A stretch of DNA of 64,000 bases from NCBI GenBank assembly GCA_001662655.1, contig KV460216.1; one strand, given 5' to 3'. Both the position numbers and the translations under genes were made by a program. The notes below the pieces were generated by a model. That model was not told the origin of the DNA and did not search any database. It was given only the letters and a program-made list of their open reading frames with translations. This document shows, in pieces, positions 2,740-51,485 of the stretch. The DNA comes from Pseudogymnoascus verrucosus. Lineage: Eukaryota. How positions within the stretch are numbered: position 1 is the first letter of the stretch; the number at the start of each line of letters is the position of its first letter.

Positions 2740-3938
2740 TTACGGACCTTCTGGCATCGTAGGCAACCCTGCGGCAATTCTGTTCGTGTTCACTTGCAAT
2801 AGTAAGTTGCGAAGTGCTGAACCGTCGTTAACATTTTGAGACAAGATAGCTTGTGGCCAAGTAGGAGGGTGTTGCGGCTGTGTAGCTAATCTTTGGGTTG
2901 CTCCTGTGGATGAGTATCCGCATGGACCAATGTCAACATCGAATAGGTGTGATAGTCTGCTCATTTGCCTAAATATGCTTTCCCATAACCCAGAGTTGAT
3001 TGTAATTTTATGGAACCGAATGCTTCTAATTGATTCCTTGGATTGTGTAATGAGAGAAGTGAGGGCATCGGCTGAAGTTTCCACCCCTTCCAAATCAACA
3101 TGTTTGAGGCGGAGCAAACGGGTAAATTCGAAGTTTGTGAGAACTATCAAAGATTCGCTGCTTATTGCAAGGGAAGTAATATCGACAGCGAGTTCAACAA
3201 GCTGGAAAATATAGAACGCATGAGTCCGGTCAGAGTGAGTATACGGACTCAGTTTCCCACCAATGTGCAACCCTAGGTGACGAAGGCCCCGTAGGGTATG
3301 TTCGATGGGTATTTGTAATGTACCAGGTTTGTTATCCAATAACTTCCCAAAGTCAGGAGCAAGCGGGAGTGTGAACTCCAGTTCAGTCAAGTTTGAAAGC
3401 AGCCCATAGCGCAATGCAGCAATGACGGTTTTAGTGGCTGTTGTCTCATTTTCCCAGGGCAAAGAAAAAGACGCGTCGTGGAACCCAAGGGCCTTAATAT
3501 TTGGAAGTCTAGCTAAGCAACCTGGTAATATTCCGGCAAGGTCTTCCTGATATAATGAGACCGATTCGGCGCTTAAATTGTCAAAGAACCGAAACCCGAC
3601 GTCGAGCCGTTGTACATATACGGCATAGGGACTTTTAGAAATCTCGATAAGTCTCACTAGAGGCGATTCTTTTTGAAAGGGAACACATATGGCCACGATG
3701 TGTCGAAAGAGCAGCGGCGAGGCAATGGCACAAAAACCTCTATTGACTAGGCGCAGTGATGTGAGGTATTGTACCGCGTTGCGTCGAGGATTGAACCCCT
3801 TGTATGGAGAAATGCAATTTGCTTCATTCTCAACGCATAACACAATCTGTAATGAGTATGTTAGCACCAGGCTGGTATCAAGTTAGAACAGCATAGCACA
3901 GCTCTTACGGCGTCACAGATCTCCTGGGGAAGTCTCAT
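2740..3938 (-). CDS. F-box-like / leucine-rich (RNI-like) fungal protein; 2 exons
   Basis: Exon 1 MRLPQEICDA, intron 3908..3847, then IVLCV...SLRLVNRGF. The LPxEI...LRLVNR pattern is typical of fungal F-box-like proteins, and LxxLxL repeats follow. Confidence 0.65.
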
Positions 3939-21204: not shown

Positions 21205-22560
21205 ATGGCCCAACGAAAGGACTTCCACGTTGCTGTTTGCGGCGGGGGTATCGGAGGCCTTTGCTTGACTATTGGCCTTCTTCGCCAGAACGTCTCTGTC
21301 AAATTATACGAAGCGGCTTCAGCATTCGCAGAAGTCGGTGCCGGCGTCTCTTTCGGGCCAAACACCATTCGAGCAATGGAGCTCATTGACCCGCTAATCG
21401 CCAAAGGGTTTGAAAATTGTGCAACCACCAATGGCTGGCCAGAGAAGAAGGATACGTGGTTTGATTTCAGGACTGGACAGGAGAAGGGCACACGAGGAGG
21501 TGTGGTGGCAGCTGTTAATACGCATGTTGCCGATGTAAAGACGAGGGGGAAAGGAGAGATAGGGCAGAACAGTACTCACAGAGCGCATTTTCTGCACGAG
21601 CTCGTGAAGCTTATCCCGGATGAAGTGCCCGAGTTTGGGAAGAGGCTCAAAAACATCGAGGAGAAGGGAGACAAGATGGTATTGACTTTTGAGGATGGGA
21701 CAACTGCAGAAGCAGATGCTGTTATTGGATGTGATGGTATCAAATCACGGACGCGGGAGATATTACTGGGCATAGATCACGAGGCTGCACATGCAGTTTT
21801 CTCTGGAAAATACGCATACAGAGGTCTAATACCGATGGATATCGCAGTGGATGCCTTAGGAGATGAACTGGCAAAGAACTCGCAGATGTATATGGGCGAA
21901 CATGGACATGTATTGACCTTCCCTATCGAGAAGGGAAAGACTATGAATGTGGTTGCTTTCAGAACTAAGCCCGACGGGAAGTGGGATGACGAAAAATGGG
22001 TTCTAGCATCCAAGAAGGAAGACATGGTAACTGATTTCGCGGGCTGGGGAGACAAAGTTACAAGCATTATATCTGTAAGTTGAAGCCCAATTCTCACCAA
22101 AAATATGATACTTTTAGCTAATAGATATGTACAGCTTATGGAGAAGTTCGACGTTTGGGCCTTGTTTGAACACCCACCGGCACCAACATACTACAAAGAC
22201 AGGCTATGTCTTCTTGGAGATGCAGCCCATGCTTCGACGCCTCATCAAGGAGCTGGCGCAGGTCAGGCTATTGAAGATGCCTTTATTTTATCACACTTAT
22301 TTGGTCAAGTCCGCTCTGCGGCTGATATTACCCAAGCTTTCAAGGCCTACGATGCTGTACGAAGGCCGCGAAGCCAACGTGTAGTAACGACAAGTAAAGA
22401 GGCCGGTTGTTTATACGAGATGGAGGATGGAGAGGTTGGAAGTGATCTGGATAAGGCAAGGGAAAATTTGCTGGCCCGATGCAAGTGGATATGGGAAAAC
22501 GATTTGAACTCACAGTTTAGAGAAGCTCAAGATGCTATGATGAACGGAAGCAAGATTTAG
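21205..22560 (+). CDS. FAD-dependent monooxygenase, salicylate 1-hydroxylase (NahG)-like; intron 22075-22134
   Basis: GGGIGG, IGCDGIKS and LLGDAAHASTPHQGAGAGQAIED group A flavoprotein motifs. Confidence 0.9.
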
Positions 22561-22677
22561 ATCAATAATGAGAACAGGGGAATCATTTATAAGCAAAATT
22601 TATTGTAATTCCATAGCTATTGTAGATGTTCTGGCTGGAGATAAAACAGAAAGAAATGAGAAGTGGAATGAAGTGTA

Positions 22678-22762
22678 GATCAGAATGTTGATACGTTTTC
22701 TCAGCAATTGCAACTTGTGCATCTGAGTGAGCTGGGTTAACGTAATGGTGGTTCATCATCTC
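22678..22762 (-). ncRNA. snR71: Box C/D snoRNA, snR71/SNORD29-like (guides LSU rRNA Am in GUGAGCUGGG), copy 1
   Basis: Minus strand: box C ATGATGA, guide AACCCAGCTCAC followed by T and D' CAGA, C'-like TTGCTGA, terminal box D CTGA. The guide complements conserved LSU domain V sequence GUGAGCUGGGUU, and the D'+5 rule points to the A. Confidence 0.85.
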
Positions 22763-22969
22763 AAACAGGAAAATGACGGAATGAAAAAGAAGGATGGGAA
22801 GCTGGGTTGGGCTTTTCGGAGGCGGGATGCATGCCGGGTTTCACTCTCACGAGGAATAAAACAGGCAAGTCAGTAAGTTGTAGTCGATAATTGGTTGTAA
22901 TTTCGTAGCTATAGTAAAGGTTCTGGCTGGAGATAAAACTAAAAGAAATGAGGAGTAGGAGTGAATGAA

Positions 22970-23054
22970 GATCAGAATGTTGATACGTTTTCTCAGCAAT
23001 TGCAACTTGTGCATCTGAGTGAGCTGGGTTAACGTAATGGTGGTTCATCATCTC
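22970..23054 (-). ncRNA. snR71: Box C/D snoRNA, snR71-like, copy 2
   Basis: Core identical to copy 1. Confidence 0.85.
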
Positions 23055-23272
23055 AACAGGAATTTGACAAAATGAAAAAGAAGGGTTGGGAAGTTGGATT
23101 GTGAAGTTGGGTTGGGCGTCCGGAACGATATCGATGGTGCATGCCAAGTTTCACTCTCACGAGGAATAAAACAAGCATGTCAGTTGTAGTCGAAAATTGG
23201 TTGTAATTTCGTAGCTAGTGTAAAGTTATAGCCCCAGGTAAATAAACAGAAAGAAATGGGGAGAGGAGGAAG

Positions 23273-23361
23273 TTGATCAGAATGTTGATACGTGTTCTCA
23301 GCAAGTGCAACTTGTGCATCTGAGTGAGCTGGGTTAACGTAATGGTGGTTCATCATTTCAA
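23273..23361 (-). ncRNA. snR71: Box C/D snoRNA, snR71-like, copy 3
   Basis: Same boxes and guides with two internal substitutions outside the guides; TTGA/TCAA terminal stem. Confidence 0.85.
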
Positions 23362-23819
23362 CGGGGATATGACAGAATGAAAAGATGGCTGGGAAGCGGA
23401 TTGGGCTTTATTTGGTGGGATGGTGCTGGTGGATGTCCGGTTCACTGTGGTGCTGATGTCGCAAGACAGTCCCTTCATGAGTTCGATTTGGTCGTAGTAA
23501 TTCGATCAATATGGCGTATTTCGAAGAAGAGTCGGCTGCCACCATTGGCTTCGGGGAAGAAATCGAAATTCCCAGTCGGCTTTTCCGCAGTCCACGATCC
23601 GTAAATATTGTCGGTGTGTCCTGTTCGAAACAAGTTAATAGCACCACCAAACATTTCATAGCTGCATGCTCATGTCACAAACGCGCTTCAGTCGAATTGA
23701 AGGTGTTTCATTGTTGAGTATTCGTAGCTAATCGCAGTCTAACAAAGACCCATGATGACACTCTCCTTGTTCCGATCATCCCAATCCCATGCAGCCTGAA
23801 CCCCGAGGAAAAGAGTCGC

Positions 23820-24635
23820 TTAGAATTTAGAGAAAGCCTTGACGGCCTTGCCGGTTCTTGGGAGAACGCGGAGAACATTGAATCGGACCTATTGCCATAT
23901 CAGCCGGCCGTTCCAGAGTGCTACTTGCTCTTTAAGACAAGTAGAGGGCGCGGGTGTAAATCGCGTTTCGTTTCCAAAGATCATAGATCTGTTTATCCGA
24001 TGGGTATTTTTTTTACTTACAGTCTTGCTCAATGGGCGGCATTGGCCGACGGTGACCTGGTCACCCTCCTCAACACGGAAAGCTGGCGAAACGTGCGCAG
24101 CGAGGTTCTTGTGGCGCTTCTCGTAACGGGCGTACTTGGGGACGAAGTGGAGGTACTCGCGGCGGATGATGAGGGTTCTGTGCATCTTGGTGGAGACGAC
24201 AGTTCCGGTGAGGATACGGCCACGGATGGAGACTTGGCCGACGAATGGGCACTTCTTGTCTGTGAGGCGCGCAATATTAGCAGCTGTTTAAGTTTGTGTT
24301 TTCCTCCGATATCTGTTGCCATGCGACACCAGGAGCTCGAGTATCAACATTCTCTTCCACTTTCAGGTGAAGAAGTGCGCAACTTCCCACCCCATCCTCG
24401 AGCTCCTAGCAATTTCGCATTCCCTTCGTATTTTCCAAGAATCCGGTGTCGACATACCAATGTAGGTTCCCTCAATGGCGGTCTTTGGGGTCCTGAACCC
24501 AAGACCAACATCCTTATACCATCTGCGTCCTCCCTTGCCAGCTCTCGCCGACTTGGCCTTGACCTTGGAGTTAAGGAAGATATGCGGCTGCTTCTGGAAA
24601 GCGCGCTCGGACTGGACGGTCAATTCGGTGGCCAT
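23820..24635 (-). CDS. RPS11: 40S ribosomal protein S11 (uS17); introns 24457-24260 and 24020-23889
   Basis: [20 protein letters not shown]...[47 protein letters not shown]. Confidence 0.97.
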
Positions 24636-24822
24636 TTTTGCGTTTGGTGGATTGTCGCGATTGTCGAAAAGTCGTGCAAAGTATCGTCGTTGACTTCACT
24701 TACCTCAAAACGCGGATTTGCAGGCGCAAGCGAAGATAGGGCTGGGATGCCCTGAACTTTTTCTCAAACATACGCTAAGAGTGAAGTAGGTTAGCGCGTT
24801 GGTAGTTGGGATTTTGCTCCGC

Positions 24823-51399: not shown

Positions 51400-51485
51400 G
51401 GCCGGGTGGTGTAGTTGGTTATCACGTTTCGTTAACATTTCAATATGTCCCGAAAAGGTCCTGGGATCGAACCCCAGCCTGGTCA
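51400..51485 (+). tRNA. tRNA-Val(AAC) with ~12-nt intron
   Basis: GGCCGGG/CCTGGTC acceptor, TGGTGTAGTTGGT A-box, TTTCG-TT-AAC-A...CGAAA anticodon arm, T-rich terminator downstream. Confidence 0.9.

What the first reader, a model, noticed from the sequence alone, without database searches (positions are those of the whole stretch)
22678..24353. snoRNA box-D guide is perfectly complementary to intron 1 of the neighbouring RPS11 pre-mRNA
Seen: all three snoRNAs carry GTATCAACATT immediately before box D (CTGA). The + strand at 24341-24353 reads GTATCAACATTCT, so the minus-strand RPS11 pre-mRNA contains AGAAUGUUGAUAC. This pairs with the 11-nt guide plus 2 nt of box D, and the D+5 rule predicts 2'-O-methylation of the U at 24347. 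The site lies almost entirely in the loop beside an 11-bp intron stem. My rough estimate for a fixed 11-mer in ~800 nt of pre-mRNA is about 2 in 10,000, though the match was found post hoc. I do not recognise an rRNA target for this guide. Inference: a linked module in which an amplified dual-guide snoRNA touches both LSU rRNA and a 40S protein pre-mRNA, possibly coupling RPS11 splicing to ribosome biogenesis. I know of no description of this in fungi.
Basis: partly seen in the sequence, partly recalled or inferred. Interest (0 to 1): 0.82.

Follow-up and report, generated by a model that had tools for sequence, protein, structure and literature searches.

The report
snoRNA match to RPS11 intron
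Three tandem copies of a known rRNA-methylation guide RNA (snR71/U29 family) sit beside the ribosomal protein gene RPS11, and their 13-base match to an RPS11 intron is real but is missing in a relative that keeps the same guide RNA, so it looks incidental rather than regulatory.

Summary
Three minus-strand box C/D snoRNAs carry GUAUCAACAUU directly before box D. RPS11 intron 1 RNA carries the perfect 13-nt complement at 24353-24341, and the D+5 position is U24347. Locally this is rare: 1-2 of 2000 shuffles give a 13-nt antisense match.

The snoRNA belongs to the snR71/U29 family. It shares its D' guide with N. crassa CD27 and matches Rfam SNORD29 only below threshold. In this family the D-side region is not a known methylation guide. 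A published alignment annotates it as an accessory element that pairs with LSU rRNA 2914-2920.

A syntenic metagenome relative, L041, keeps the snoRNA (87 of 90 identical, 11-mer identical). Neutral DNA between the two is saturated at 33-51% identity. Its RPS11 intron 1 lacks the complement at the aligned place, and its best antisense match is 9 nt, which is not significant. So the intron does not explain why the element is conserved.

The match runs into box D and weakly into the 3' flank, which is not the pattern expected of a guide. Chance or a small inverted copying event is most likely. A young regulatory link is not excluded, at about 0.1. I could not test rRNA targets because no genome was held.

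The parts
23272..23361 (-). Box C/D snoRNA copy A, the one nearest RPS11. It has box C AUGAUGA, a D' guide, C' UGCUGAGA, the D-side 11-mer and box D CUGA, with a 5-bp terminal stem GUUGA/UCAAC.
   Evidence: (SNORD29 26.1 bits, E 0.028, below the gathering score of 48)
22967..23056 (-). Box C/D snoRNA copy B.
   Evidence: (20.9 bits); tandem period 305
22675..22764 (-). Box C/D snoRNA copy C.
   Evidence: (20.3 bits); spacing 292 (family D1)
23324..23335 (-). D' guide AACCCAGCUCAC of copy A. The same guide is at 23019-23030 in copy B and 22727-22738 in copy C. It is followed by U + CAGA, which serves as D'. It targets the LSU site that yeast numbering calls A2946.
   Evidence: Its 3' ten bases are the exact complement of the target printed for snR71 in PMC3116282 Suppl. 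Fig. S1. The 17-nt guide + D' string is shared with N. crassa CD27.
23281..23291 (-). D-side 11-mer GUAUCAACAUU of copy A. The same 11-mer is at 22976-22986 in copy B and 22684-22694 in copy C.
   Evidence: identical in 7 of 7 copies seen (window 3, L014 3, L041 1)
24341..24353 (-). 13-nt site AGAAUGUUGAUAC in RPS11 intron 1 RNA. It is complementary to the 11-mer plus the first two bases of box D. The D+5 position is U24347.
   Evidence: I1-I3
24260..24457 (-). RPS11 intron 1 (198 nt, GUAUGU...CACAG; putative branch site CUAAU at 24280-24276).
24331..24407 (-). Intron stem-loop. The arms are 24397-24407 (5' in the RNA) and 24331-24341 (3'), an 11-bp perfect stem. The loop holds the 13-mer.
   Evidence: I5. 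The arm blocks are conserved in L041, but the stem is not in L041's predicted fold.
23820..24635 (-). RPS11 (uS17) coding region. Exons are 24635-24458, 24259-24021 and 23888-23820. Intron 2 is 24020-23889.
22560..23480 (-). Putative multi-intron host region of the array. Each snoRNA lies between a GUGAGA-type 5' splice site and a ...UCCAG 3' splice site. Whether this is an extension of the RPS11 transcript or a separate non-coding host is not known.
   Evidence: Sequence read by eye and repeats. No RNA evidence was obtained.

Best explanation
**Anatomy.** The locus is an ordinary RPS11 (uS17) gene. About 460 nt downstream on the same strand comes a three-copy tandem array of an snR71/U29-family box C/D snoRNA. 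Each copy is embedded in a short intron of a host transcript.

**What the snoRNA does.** Its D' guide (AACCCAGCUCAC, then U + CAGA) directs 2'-O-methylation of the LSU rRNA site equivalent to yeast A2946. This is inferred from family membership and complementarity.

**What the 11-mer is.** The 11-mer before box D is this lineage's version of the family's conserved 3' element. In described members that element is not a methylation guide. It is at most an accessory rRNA-pairing element, aimed at LSU 2914-2920 in yeasts. It is held constant by selection on the snoRNA itself.

**What the intron match is.** The perfect 13-nt complementarity to RPS11 intron 1 is a young feature restricted to this lineage. 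It has no demonstrated or required function, and the most likely cause is coincidence. Part of the site (AAUG...AUAC) pre-exists in the relative's intron next to a conserved intron block.
For: **Family identity.**
- Boxes C, D', C' and D are in canonical order.
- The only Rfam matches for the three copies are to SNORD29.
- The D' guide, D' box and C' box are shared with N. crassa CD27, which the authors equate with snR71/U29 and assign only D' targets.
- The guide is complementary to the snR71 target printed in PMC3116282 Suppl. Fig. S1.

**Nature of the D-side element.**
- The same figure and text list snR71 among snoRNAs with 'extra base-pairing'. They state that, with one exception, such regions are not predicted to guide methylation.
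- The yeast rows read ...UAUCCAACAUUC..., against UAUCAACAUUC here.
- The printed Sordariomycete, Botrytis (Bfuc) and Dothideomycete rows read AUCUACU next to box D. Three metagenome homologues read AUCUAC at the same place.

**Independence from the intron.**
- L041 is syntenic, with RPS11 plus one snoRNA copy about 430 nt downstream.
- Between the window and L041 the snoRNA is 87 of 90 identical and the 11-mer 11 of 11.
- Over the same comparison intron 1 is 51% identical, the spacer 44%, and the 100 nt after the snoRNA 33%.
- At the aligned place the L041 intron reads CCAAUGC-AUACUCGAG.
- L041's longest antisense match to its own snoRNA is 9 nt and lies over box D. That length was reached in 61 of 2000 intron shuffles and 311 of 2000 pre-mRNA shuffles.

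**Geometry.**
- The match includes 2 nt of box D.
- It shows no extension on the guide's 5' side, with 3-4 of 12 matches there.
- It lies away from the splice signals.
Against: - A 13-nt perfect antisense match between neighbours is rare: 1-2 of 2000 shuffles, and about 0.002 expected in the whole window.
- It sits in a predicted single-stranded loop and so would be accessible.
- Four close relatives laid on the region show differences at 24355, 24360, 24361 and a 3-nt gap at 24369, but none is listed inside 24341-24353. That table was truncated, with 246 differences not shown, so this is only weak evidence of conservation.
- Only one diverged relative with the intron was available. The direction of change (gain here or loss in L041) cannot be told without an outgroup.
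- The window's element lacks one C of the AUCCAAC accessory motif. Its pairing to LSU 2914-2920 would therefore be poor, and what keeps it constant is not established.
Confidence: 0.62

Rival explanations
1. **Mutational by-product.** A short inverted copying event, either a template switch or an inverted micro-duplication, wrote about 13-22 nt of the snoRNA's 3' end, box D and 3' flank into the nearby intron. The donor lay 1.0-1.6 kb away. The match is then not chance, but it is also not selected.
For: - The identity runs across box D into the 3' flank. It is 19 of 22 with the proximal copy (I2, 42).
- Beyond the 13-mer, 7 of 12 positions match. That was reached by 345 and 296 of 20000 random windows for two copies.
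- Relative to L041, the differences that create the match are clustered in about 9 nt. Such clustering is the usual signature of a template switch. The association with template switching rests on my recollection of the literature, which I did not read here.
Against: - The flank extension is only marginal after allowing for three copies, two sides and two lengths tested.
- No extension is seen on the other side.
- A donor-to-acceptor distance above 1 kb is long for such events (recalled).
- The change cannot be polarised without an outgroup.
Confidence: 0.16
2. **Functional snoRNA-intron pairing.** The snoRNP in trans, or the unprocessed snoRNA in cis if RPS11 is the host transcript, pairs with the intron 1 loop. 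It either methylates U24347 or remodels the stem-loop, and so tunes RPS11 splicing in this lineage.
For: - The match is locally improbable.
- It is 11 nt long and directly abuts a canonical box D.
- The site lies in a predicted loop.
- No difference is listed inside the site in four close relatives (truncated table).
- There is precedent. Human SNORD2 pairs with its host intron and changes splicing (PMC10324135, abstract read). Yeast CLASH found 32 snoRNA hybrid sites in introns (PMC6171561, passages).
Against: - It is not conserved in L041 although the element is identical there.
- The site is not at a splice site or branch point.
- Complementarity includes box D bases, which are bound in the K-turn and not available for guide pairing. 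This rests on established box C/D snoRNP architecture.
- Whether RPS11 is the host transcript is unknown.
- The other four snR71-like loci fetched show no site of 1 mismatch or fewer for their own D-side 11-mer within +/-3 kb.
Confidence: 0.12
3. **An untested canonical target.** The D-side 11-mer is a genuine methylation guide for an rRNA, snRNA or tRNA site specific to this lineage, and the intron match is incidental. This is compatible with the best explanation as far as the intron is concerned.
For: - It is 11 of 11 conserved between the window, L014 and L041 while neutral DNA is saturated.
- It abuts a canonical box D.
Against: - No snR71 family member described in the papers I read has a D-guide target.
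- The whole snoRNA, spacer included, is 97% conserved, so the conservation is not specific to this element.
- I could not search this organism's rRNA, because no genome was held.
Confidence: 0.15

Closest known systems
snR71 (S. cerevisiae) / U29 = SNORD29 (human, plants) / Nc CD27 (Neurospora crassa); Rfam clan CL00051
   Same: - It has the same box order.
- Its D' guide is complementary to the LSU site A2946 (Am2904 in N. crassa).
- It shares the CAGA-type D' box and the UGCUGAGA-type C' box.
- It is located in an intron.
   Different: - It is present as three tandem copies.
- Its Rfam score is below gathering (20-26 against 48 bits).
- Its D-side element reads AUCAACAUU, where yeasts have UCCAAC... 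and the printed Sordariomycete, Botrytis and Dothideomycete rows have AUCUACU.
- By eye, the closest printed row is Botrytis (Bfuc), which has the same GCACAAGUUGCA spacer.
'Extra base-pairing' accessory elements of box C/D snoRNAs (van Nues et al. 2011, PMC3116282)
   Same: [quoted passage not shown]
   Different: - Here the element lies directly against box D.
- It lacks one C of the AUCCAAC motif that matches LSU 2914-2920, so the accessory pairing is doubtful in this lineage.
- It was not tested on this organism's rRNA.
snoRNA-host intron duplexes that regulate splicing (SNORD2-EIF4A2; Bergeron et al. 2023, PMC10324135)
   Same: A box C/D snoRNA is complementary to an intron of a neighbouring, possibly host, gene.
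   Different: - The human duplex hides a branch point next to an alternative exon and is conserved.
- Here the site is 64 nt from the putative branch point.
- No alternative exon is known here.
- The complementarity is absent in the one diverged relative.
snoRNA-mRNA hybrids in yeast CLASH (Dudnakova et al. 2018, PMC6171561)
   Same: Fungal snoRNPs physically contact mRNAs and pre-mRNAs. The study reports 448 sites, 32 of them in introns.
   Different: - snR71 is not mentioned in that paper's main text (0 occurrences).
- Function is unproven there too.
UHG-like multi-intron snoRNA host genes of N. crassa (Liu et al. 2009, PMC2780460)
   Same: There is one snoRNA per short intron, and the exons are short and non-coding.
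   Different: - Here the introns carry copies of a single snoRNA made by tandem duplication.
- The array directly follows a ribosomal protein gene.

Membership tests
snR71 / U29 (SNORD29) box C/D snoRNA | Box C (RUGAUGA) near the 5' end and box D (CUGA) near the 3' end, with internal D' and C' boxes | tested here: met
   AUGAUGA ... UCAGA ... UGCUGAGA ... CUGA is present in all three copies. A clear terminal stem is seen only in copy A.
snR71 / U29 (SNORD29) box C/D snoRNA | D' guide complementary to LSU rRNA, placing the A2946 equivalent at the fifth pair from D' | tested here: met
   CCCAGCUCAC is the exact complement of the target printed 3'-GGGUCGAGUG-5' (L2946) in PMC3116282 Suppl. Fig. 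S1. With U + CAGA as D', the fifth position pairs with that A. This organism's own rRNA was not available.
snR71 / U29 (SNORD29) box C/D snoRNA | Score at or above the Rfam gathering threshold | tested here: not met
   There is no snoRNA hit at gathering. SNORD29 scores 26.1, 20.9 and 20.3 bits against 48.
snR71 / U29 (SNORD29) box C/D snoRNA | Sequence homology to described fungal members | tested here: met
   The 17-nt guide + D' string and the C' box are shared with N. crassa CD27. It aligns with four metagenome homologue lineages. Its resemblance to the printed Botrytis row was judged by eye.
snR71 accessory ('extra base-pairing') element | D-side element complementary to LSU 2914-2920 (printed 3'-UAGGUUG-5') | tested here: not met
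   The window has AUCAAC where AUCCAAC would be complementary. That gives at best 4+2 pairs with a bulge.
snoRNA that regulates a (host) pre-mRNA by base pairing | 10 nt or more of complementarity to the pre-mRNA | tested here: met
   13 nt are perfect, of which 11 are upstream of box D.
snoRNA that regulates a (host) pre-mRNA by base pairing | Complementarity conserved or covarying in relatives | tested here: not met
   L041 has the identical element, but the intron site is not complementary. Data from close relatives are inconclusive.
snoRNA that regulates a (host) pre-mRNA by base pairing | Duplex covers a splice site, branch point or alternative exon | tested here: not met
   The site is 104 nt from the 5' splice site and 64 nt upstream of the putative branch A at 24277 (by eye).
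snoRNA that regulates a (host) pre-mRNA by base pairing | Physical interaction or methylation of the target in vivo | not testable with these tools
   This needs CLASH, RiboMeth-seq or RTL-P.

The most novel reading that the evidence does not exclude
In this fungal lineage the triplicated snR71 snoRNA has recently acquired a second job. Its 3' element pairs with the loop of a stem-loop in RPS11 intron 1. The pairing could occur in trans as a snoRNP, methylating U24347, or in cis within a common RPS11-snoRNA precursor. Either way, production of a 40S protein would be tuned to snoRNP abundance. This would be a fungal counterpart of the SNORD2-EIF4A2 host-intron duplex.
Probability: 0.1. Interest if true: 0.65.

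Novelty: new member of a known kind. Interest (0 to 1): 0.22.

Why it matters
If the pairing were functional, it would be a first case in filamentous fungi of a box C/D snoRNA acting on a ribosomal-protein pre-mRNA. It would link LSU rRNA modification machinery to 40S protein supply. As it stands, the value is mostly cautionary. A locally very improbable guide-like match (p about 0.001) can still be incidental. One diverged syntenic relative was enough to show that the snoRNA element is conserved for reasons that do not involve the intron. The locus also adds a triplicated snR71 member with a variant D-side element to the fungal snoRNA catalogue.

Tried and rejected
**Genome access.**
- No whole genome is held for the window.
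- No genome or record is held behind L041.
- The proposed search of this species' rRNA, snRNA and tRNA for the target could therefore not be run.
- From memory I recognise no full match in yeast rRNAs. That is recollection, not a test.

**Rfam.**
- At gathering thresholds only a tRNA was found.
- In the E-value search of 22400-24800, the hits sR1 and sR43 on the plus strand inside exon 2, and the CRISPR-DR36, PhotoRC-I and TtnuCD4 hits, are weak (E 0.2-6.7). I treated them as chance.

**Literature.**
- A search for the 11-mer and its complement, as DNA and RNA, found 37 papers with at least one string. Of these 30 were listed, and none concerned snoRNAs by title.
- Supplements of 'The fungal snoRNAome' were not readable. 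Its main text has no occurrence of '2946', 'U29' or 'host gene'.
- The 2021 paper on 17 conserved fungal RNA structures has no occurrence of RPS11.

**Earlier scan notes.** Nothing was found by place, by sequence or by words.

**Metagenome scan.**
- It returned 53 loci.
- By eye and by a box C pattern, only L011, L014, L041, L045 and L007/L037 (the same sequence twice) are snoRNA-like.
- I set the other 47 aside as chance 17-mer matches.

**Close relatives.**
- I laid the contigs of X6, X7, X8 and X12. These are 4 of the 22 runs listed.
- The difference table is truncated, with 246 substitutions and 37 indels not shown.
- Absence of a listed change in 24341-24353 is therefore not proof of identity.

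**Other ideas tested.**
- A relic sense-strand or plus-strand snoRNA in intron 1: no box C or box D pair is present.
- The array's inter-snoRNA 'exons' as duplicates of the RPS11 3' UTR: only a 10-nt shared word was found, reached by 24-44 of 500 shuffles, which is not significant.
- Consensus fold of four snoRNA homologues: only a 5-bp D'/C' pairing appeared, with no compensatory change.
- Intron 2 fold: there was no thermodynamic signal.
Full report
**1. What is in the sequence.**

On the minus strand the region reads, in order, as follows.
- RPS11: ATG at 24635; exons 24635-24458, 24259-24021 and 23888-23820; introns 24457-24260 and 24020-23889. The product is 161 aa, and exon 2 scores 84 bits against Pfam Ribosomal_S17.
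- About 460 nt of 3' sequence.
- Three tandem units with spacings of 292 and 305 nt. Each unit holds a 90-nt box C/D RNA, at 23361-23272, 23056-22967 and 22764-22675.

Each copy reads: box C AUGAUGA, a guide ending AACCCAGCUCAC, then U + CAGA (D'), a short GCA...UGC hairpin, C' UGCUGAGA, the string AA(A/C)ACGUAUCAACAUU, and box D CUGA.

By eye, each copy lies between a GUGAGA-type 5' splice site and a ...UCCAG 3' splice site. That is one snoRNA per short intron of a host transcript. I have no RNA evidence for the host.

**2.

- The exact 11-mer occurs four times in the window: in the three snoRNAs (minus strand) and at 24341-24351 (plus strand).
- The plus strand at 24341-24353 equals the snoRNA's last 11 guide-side bases plus the CU of box D. 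The RPS11 intron 1 RNA therefore carries a perfect 13-nt complement.
- The fifth base from box D pairs with U24347.
- The 11-bp stem exists, with arms 24397-24407 and 24331-24341 (I5). It is in the predicted minimum-energy fold with the 13-mer in the loop. That fold is not exceptional: z = -1.2, and 26 of 200 shuffles fold as well.
- A 13-nt antisense match between the 90-nt snoRNA and the 921-nt RPS11 region arose in 2 of 2000 dinucleotide shuffles. For the intron alone it arose in 1 of 2000.

**3. What the snoRNA is.**

- Rfam gives only sub-threshold matches, to SNORD29 (U29), at 26.1, 20.9 and 20.3 bits against a gathering score of 48. Nothing passes at gathering.
- The N. crassa catalogue (PMC2780460; Table 1 passages and Additional file 1 read) lists CD27 as the snR71/U29 homologue. 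It guides 26S Am2904 and Cm2906 from the D' guide, it is intronic, and it has no D-guide target.
- CD27's printed sequence shares the 17-nt guide + D' string and the C' box with the window's RNA. It has a different D-side region.
- Supplementary Figure S1 of van Nues et al. 2011 (PMC3116282; passages of the supplement read) prints an snR71 alignment across Ascomycota.
  - The L2946 target is printed 3'-GGGUCGAGUG-5', the exact complement of CCCAGCUCAC here.
  - Two 'extra base-pairing' targets on the D side are also printed: L2940-35 and L2919/20-14, the latter as 3'-UAGGUUG-5'.
[quoted passage not shown] It states that, with one exception (snR69), these regions are not predicted to guide methylation.
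- The D-side region reads differently in different groups.
  - Yeast rows read ...UAUCCAACAUUCA...
  - Several Eurotiomycete rows read UUCCAACG.
  - The printed Sordariomycete, Botrytis (Bfuc) and Dothideomycete rows read AUCUACU directly before box D.
  - The window reads UAUCAACAUU directly before box D. That is the yeast string minus one C, so its complementarity to the printed LSU 2914-2920 motif is broken.
- By eye the window's RNA is closest to the Botrytis row, which has the same GCACAAGUUGCA spacer.

The 'box-D guide' is therefore the family's conserved 3' element, and no member has a reported methylation target for it.

**4. Relatives.**

*Metagenome scan.* No genome is held for the window. 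A metagenome scan with the 17-nt guide + D' string returned 53 loci. Six look like snoRNAs: L011, L014 with three copies, L041, L045, and L007/L037, which are the same sequence. The other 47 I set aside as chance 17-mer hits.

*L014 and the other loci.* L014 is a 1.5-kb contig that holds only the end of RPS11 and a three-copy array. It is almost identical to the window. A tblastn search with RPS11 hit only L041 and L014 among the 53 loci.

*L041 is the informative relative.*
- It has RPS11 with the same exon-intron structure and a single snoRNA copy about 430 nt downstream on the same strand.
- Identity between the window and L041:

| Region | Identity |
|---|---|
| Exon 1 | 90% |
| Exon 2 | 97% |
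| Exon 3 | 90% |
| snoRNA | 87 of 90 (11-mer 11 of 11) |
| Intron 2 | 85% |
| First 150 nt of the 3' UTR | 84% |
| Intron 1 | 51% |
| Spacer | 44% |
| 100 nt after the snoRNA | 33% |

- Unconstrained DNA is thus saturated, and the snoRNA is under strong purifying selection.
- In the intron 1 alignment the blocks AGCUCGAGGA and AUACUCGAGC are kept. The window's AGAAUGUUGAUAC corresponds to CCAAUGC-AUAC in L041.
- L041's longest antisense match between its own snoRNA and its RPS11 is 9 nt (UGAUCAGAA). It lies over box D and the 3' end, at another place in the intron. That length was reached by 61 of 2000 intron shuffles and 311 of 2000 pre-mRNA shuffles.
- The element is therefore conserved where the intron complement is absent. 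The intron cannot be what constrains it.
- None of L041, L045, L037 and L011 has a site complementary to its own D-side 11-mer, with 1 mismatch or fewer, within +/-3 kb. The one exception is in L041, where the 11-mer is 10 of 11 antisense to the snoRNA's own box C region.

*Close relatives.*
- Contigs of four coded runs were laid on 22500-24760 at 80% likeness or more. These were 4 of the 22 runs listed.
- They show differences at 24276, 24308, 24313, 24355 (all four runs), 24360, 24361 and a 3-nt gap at 24369.
- None is listed within 24341-24353.
- The table omits 246 differences. This says only that no well-supported change was shown there.

**5. Shape of the match.**

- It starts 11 nt upstream of box D and runs through the first two bases of box D.
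- It continues imperfectly into the 3' flank of the proximal copy, 19 of 22 overall (I2).
- Beyond the core, 7 of 12 positions match. That was reached by 345 and 296 of 20000 random windows for two copies.
- On the 5' side only 3-4 of 12 match.
- Guide-target selection would favour extension on the 5' side and has no use for box D or flank bases. In established box C/D snoRNP architecture, box D is bound in the K-turn.
- The pattern fits a short inverted copy of the snoRNA's 3' end slightly better. The statistics are marginal once the number of comparisons is allowed for.
- The site is 104 nt from the 5' splice site and 64 nt upstream of the putative branch A (24277).

**6. Reading.**

| Explanation | Probability |
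|---|---|
| Ordinary snR71-family array beside RPS11; D-side element constrained by the snoRNA's own function; intron match incidental and restricted to this lineage | 0.62 |
| Template switch or inverted micro-duplication that wrote the snoRNA's 3' end into the intron | 0.16 |
| Real but young snoRNA-intron interaction | 0.12 |

- A further possibility is not exclusive of these: the 11-mer may guide methylation of an rRNA or snRNA site that I could not search (0.15).
- Precedents for the functional reading exist. Human SNORD2 pairs with its host intron and alters splicing (PMC10324135, abstract read). Yeast CLASH recovered 32 snoRNA hybrid sites in introns, with no function shown (PMC6171561, passages read).

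**7. Limits.**

- Only one diverged relative carries the intron.
- There is no outgroup to polarise the change.
- No rRNA of this organism was available.
- No RNA data were obtained.
- The printed snR71 alignment was compared by eye only.

Noticed in passing
window 23889-24020 (minus strand), RPS11 intron 2; L041 about 3581-3711: Intron 2 is 85% identical between the window and L041, against 51% for intron 1 and 33-44% for other non-coding DNA. A near-invariant core of about 85 nt includes a shared hairpin, CUACUUG...CAAGUAG. The predicted folds are not unusually stable (z -0.3 and +0.45), and Rfam finds nothing there. It may be a conserved intronic element of unknown role.
   Followed up: partly
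window 23670-23819 (minus strand), first 150 nt after the RPS11 stop codon: The start of the 3' UTR is 84% identical to L041, far above the neighbouring spacer at 44%. It is a conserved 3' UTR or host-exon sequence.
   Followed up: no
L041 about 3029-3039 (minus strand) and 2962-2972: In L041 the D-side 11-mer is 10 of 11 antisense to the snoRNA's own box C region. In the window the corresponding match is weaker, about 8 of 11 by eye. It may be an AU-rich coincidence or an intramolecular pairing.
   Followed up: no
window 23275-23356, in the contigs of runs X6, X8 and X12: In close relatives the snoRNA core is joined to other flanks, shown as loose ends at 23275 and at about 23356-23363. One contig of X7 loops back by 305 nt. 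Copy number or unit flanks of the array therefore vary among relatives, or further copies exist elsewhere. L041 has a single copy.
   Followed up: partly
window 24380-24396 versus 23080-23096: There is a second imperfect inverted match, 17 nt at 88%, between the intron 1 loop and the sequence about 25 nt upstream of snoRNA copy B (I4). Matches of this size are expected by chance in 2.3 kb, so I give it no weight.
   Followed up: partly
window 51400-51485 (plus strand): A tRNA gene (Rfam 47.5 bits) has a 15-nt insertion after the anticodon, which looks like an intron.
   Followed up: no
L045 about 2972-3059; L037 and L007; L011 about 2972-3069: Three further metagenome snR71 homologues carry the AUCUAC-type D-side element. 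None has RPS11 within 3 kb. The RPS11 linkage is therefore not general in the family.
   Followed up: partly
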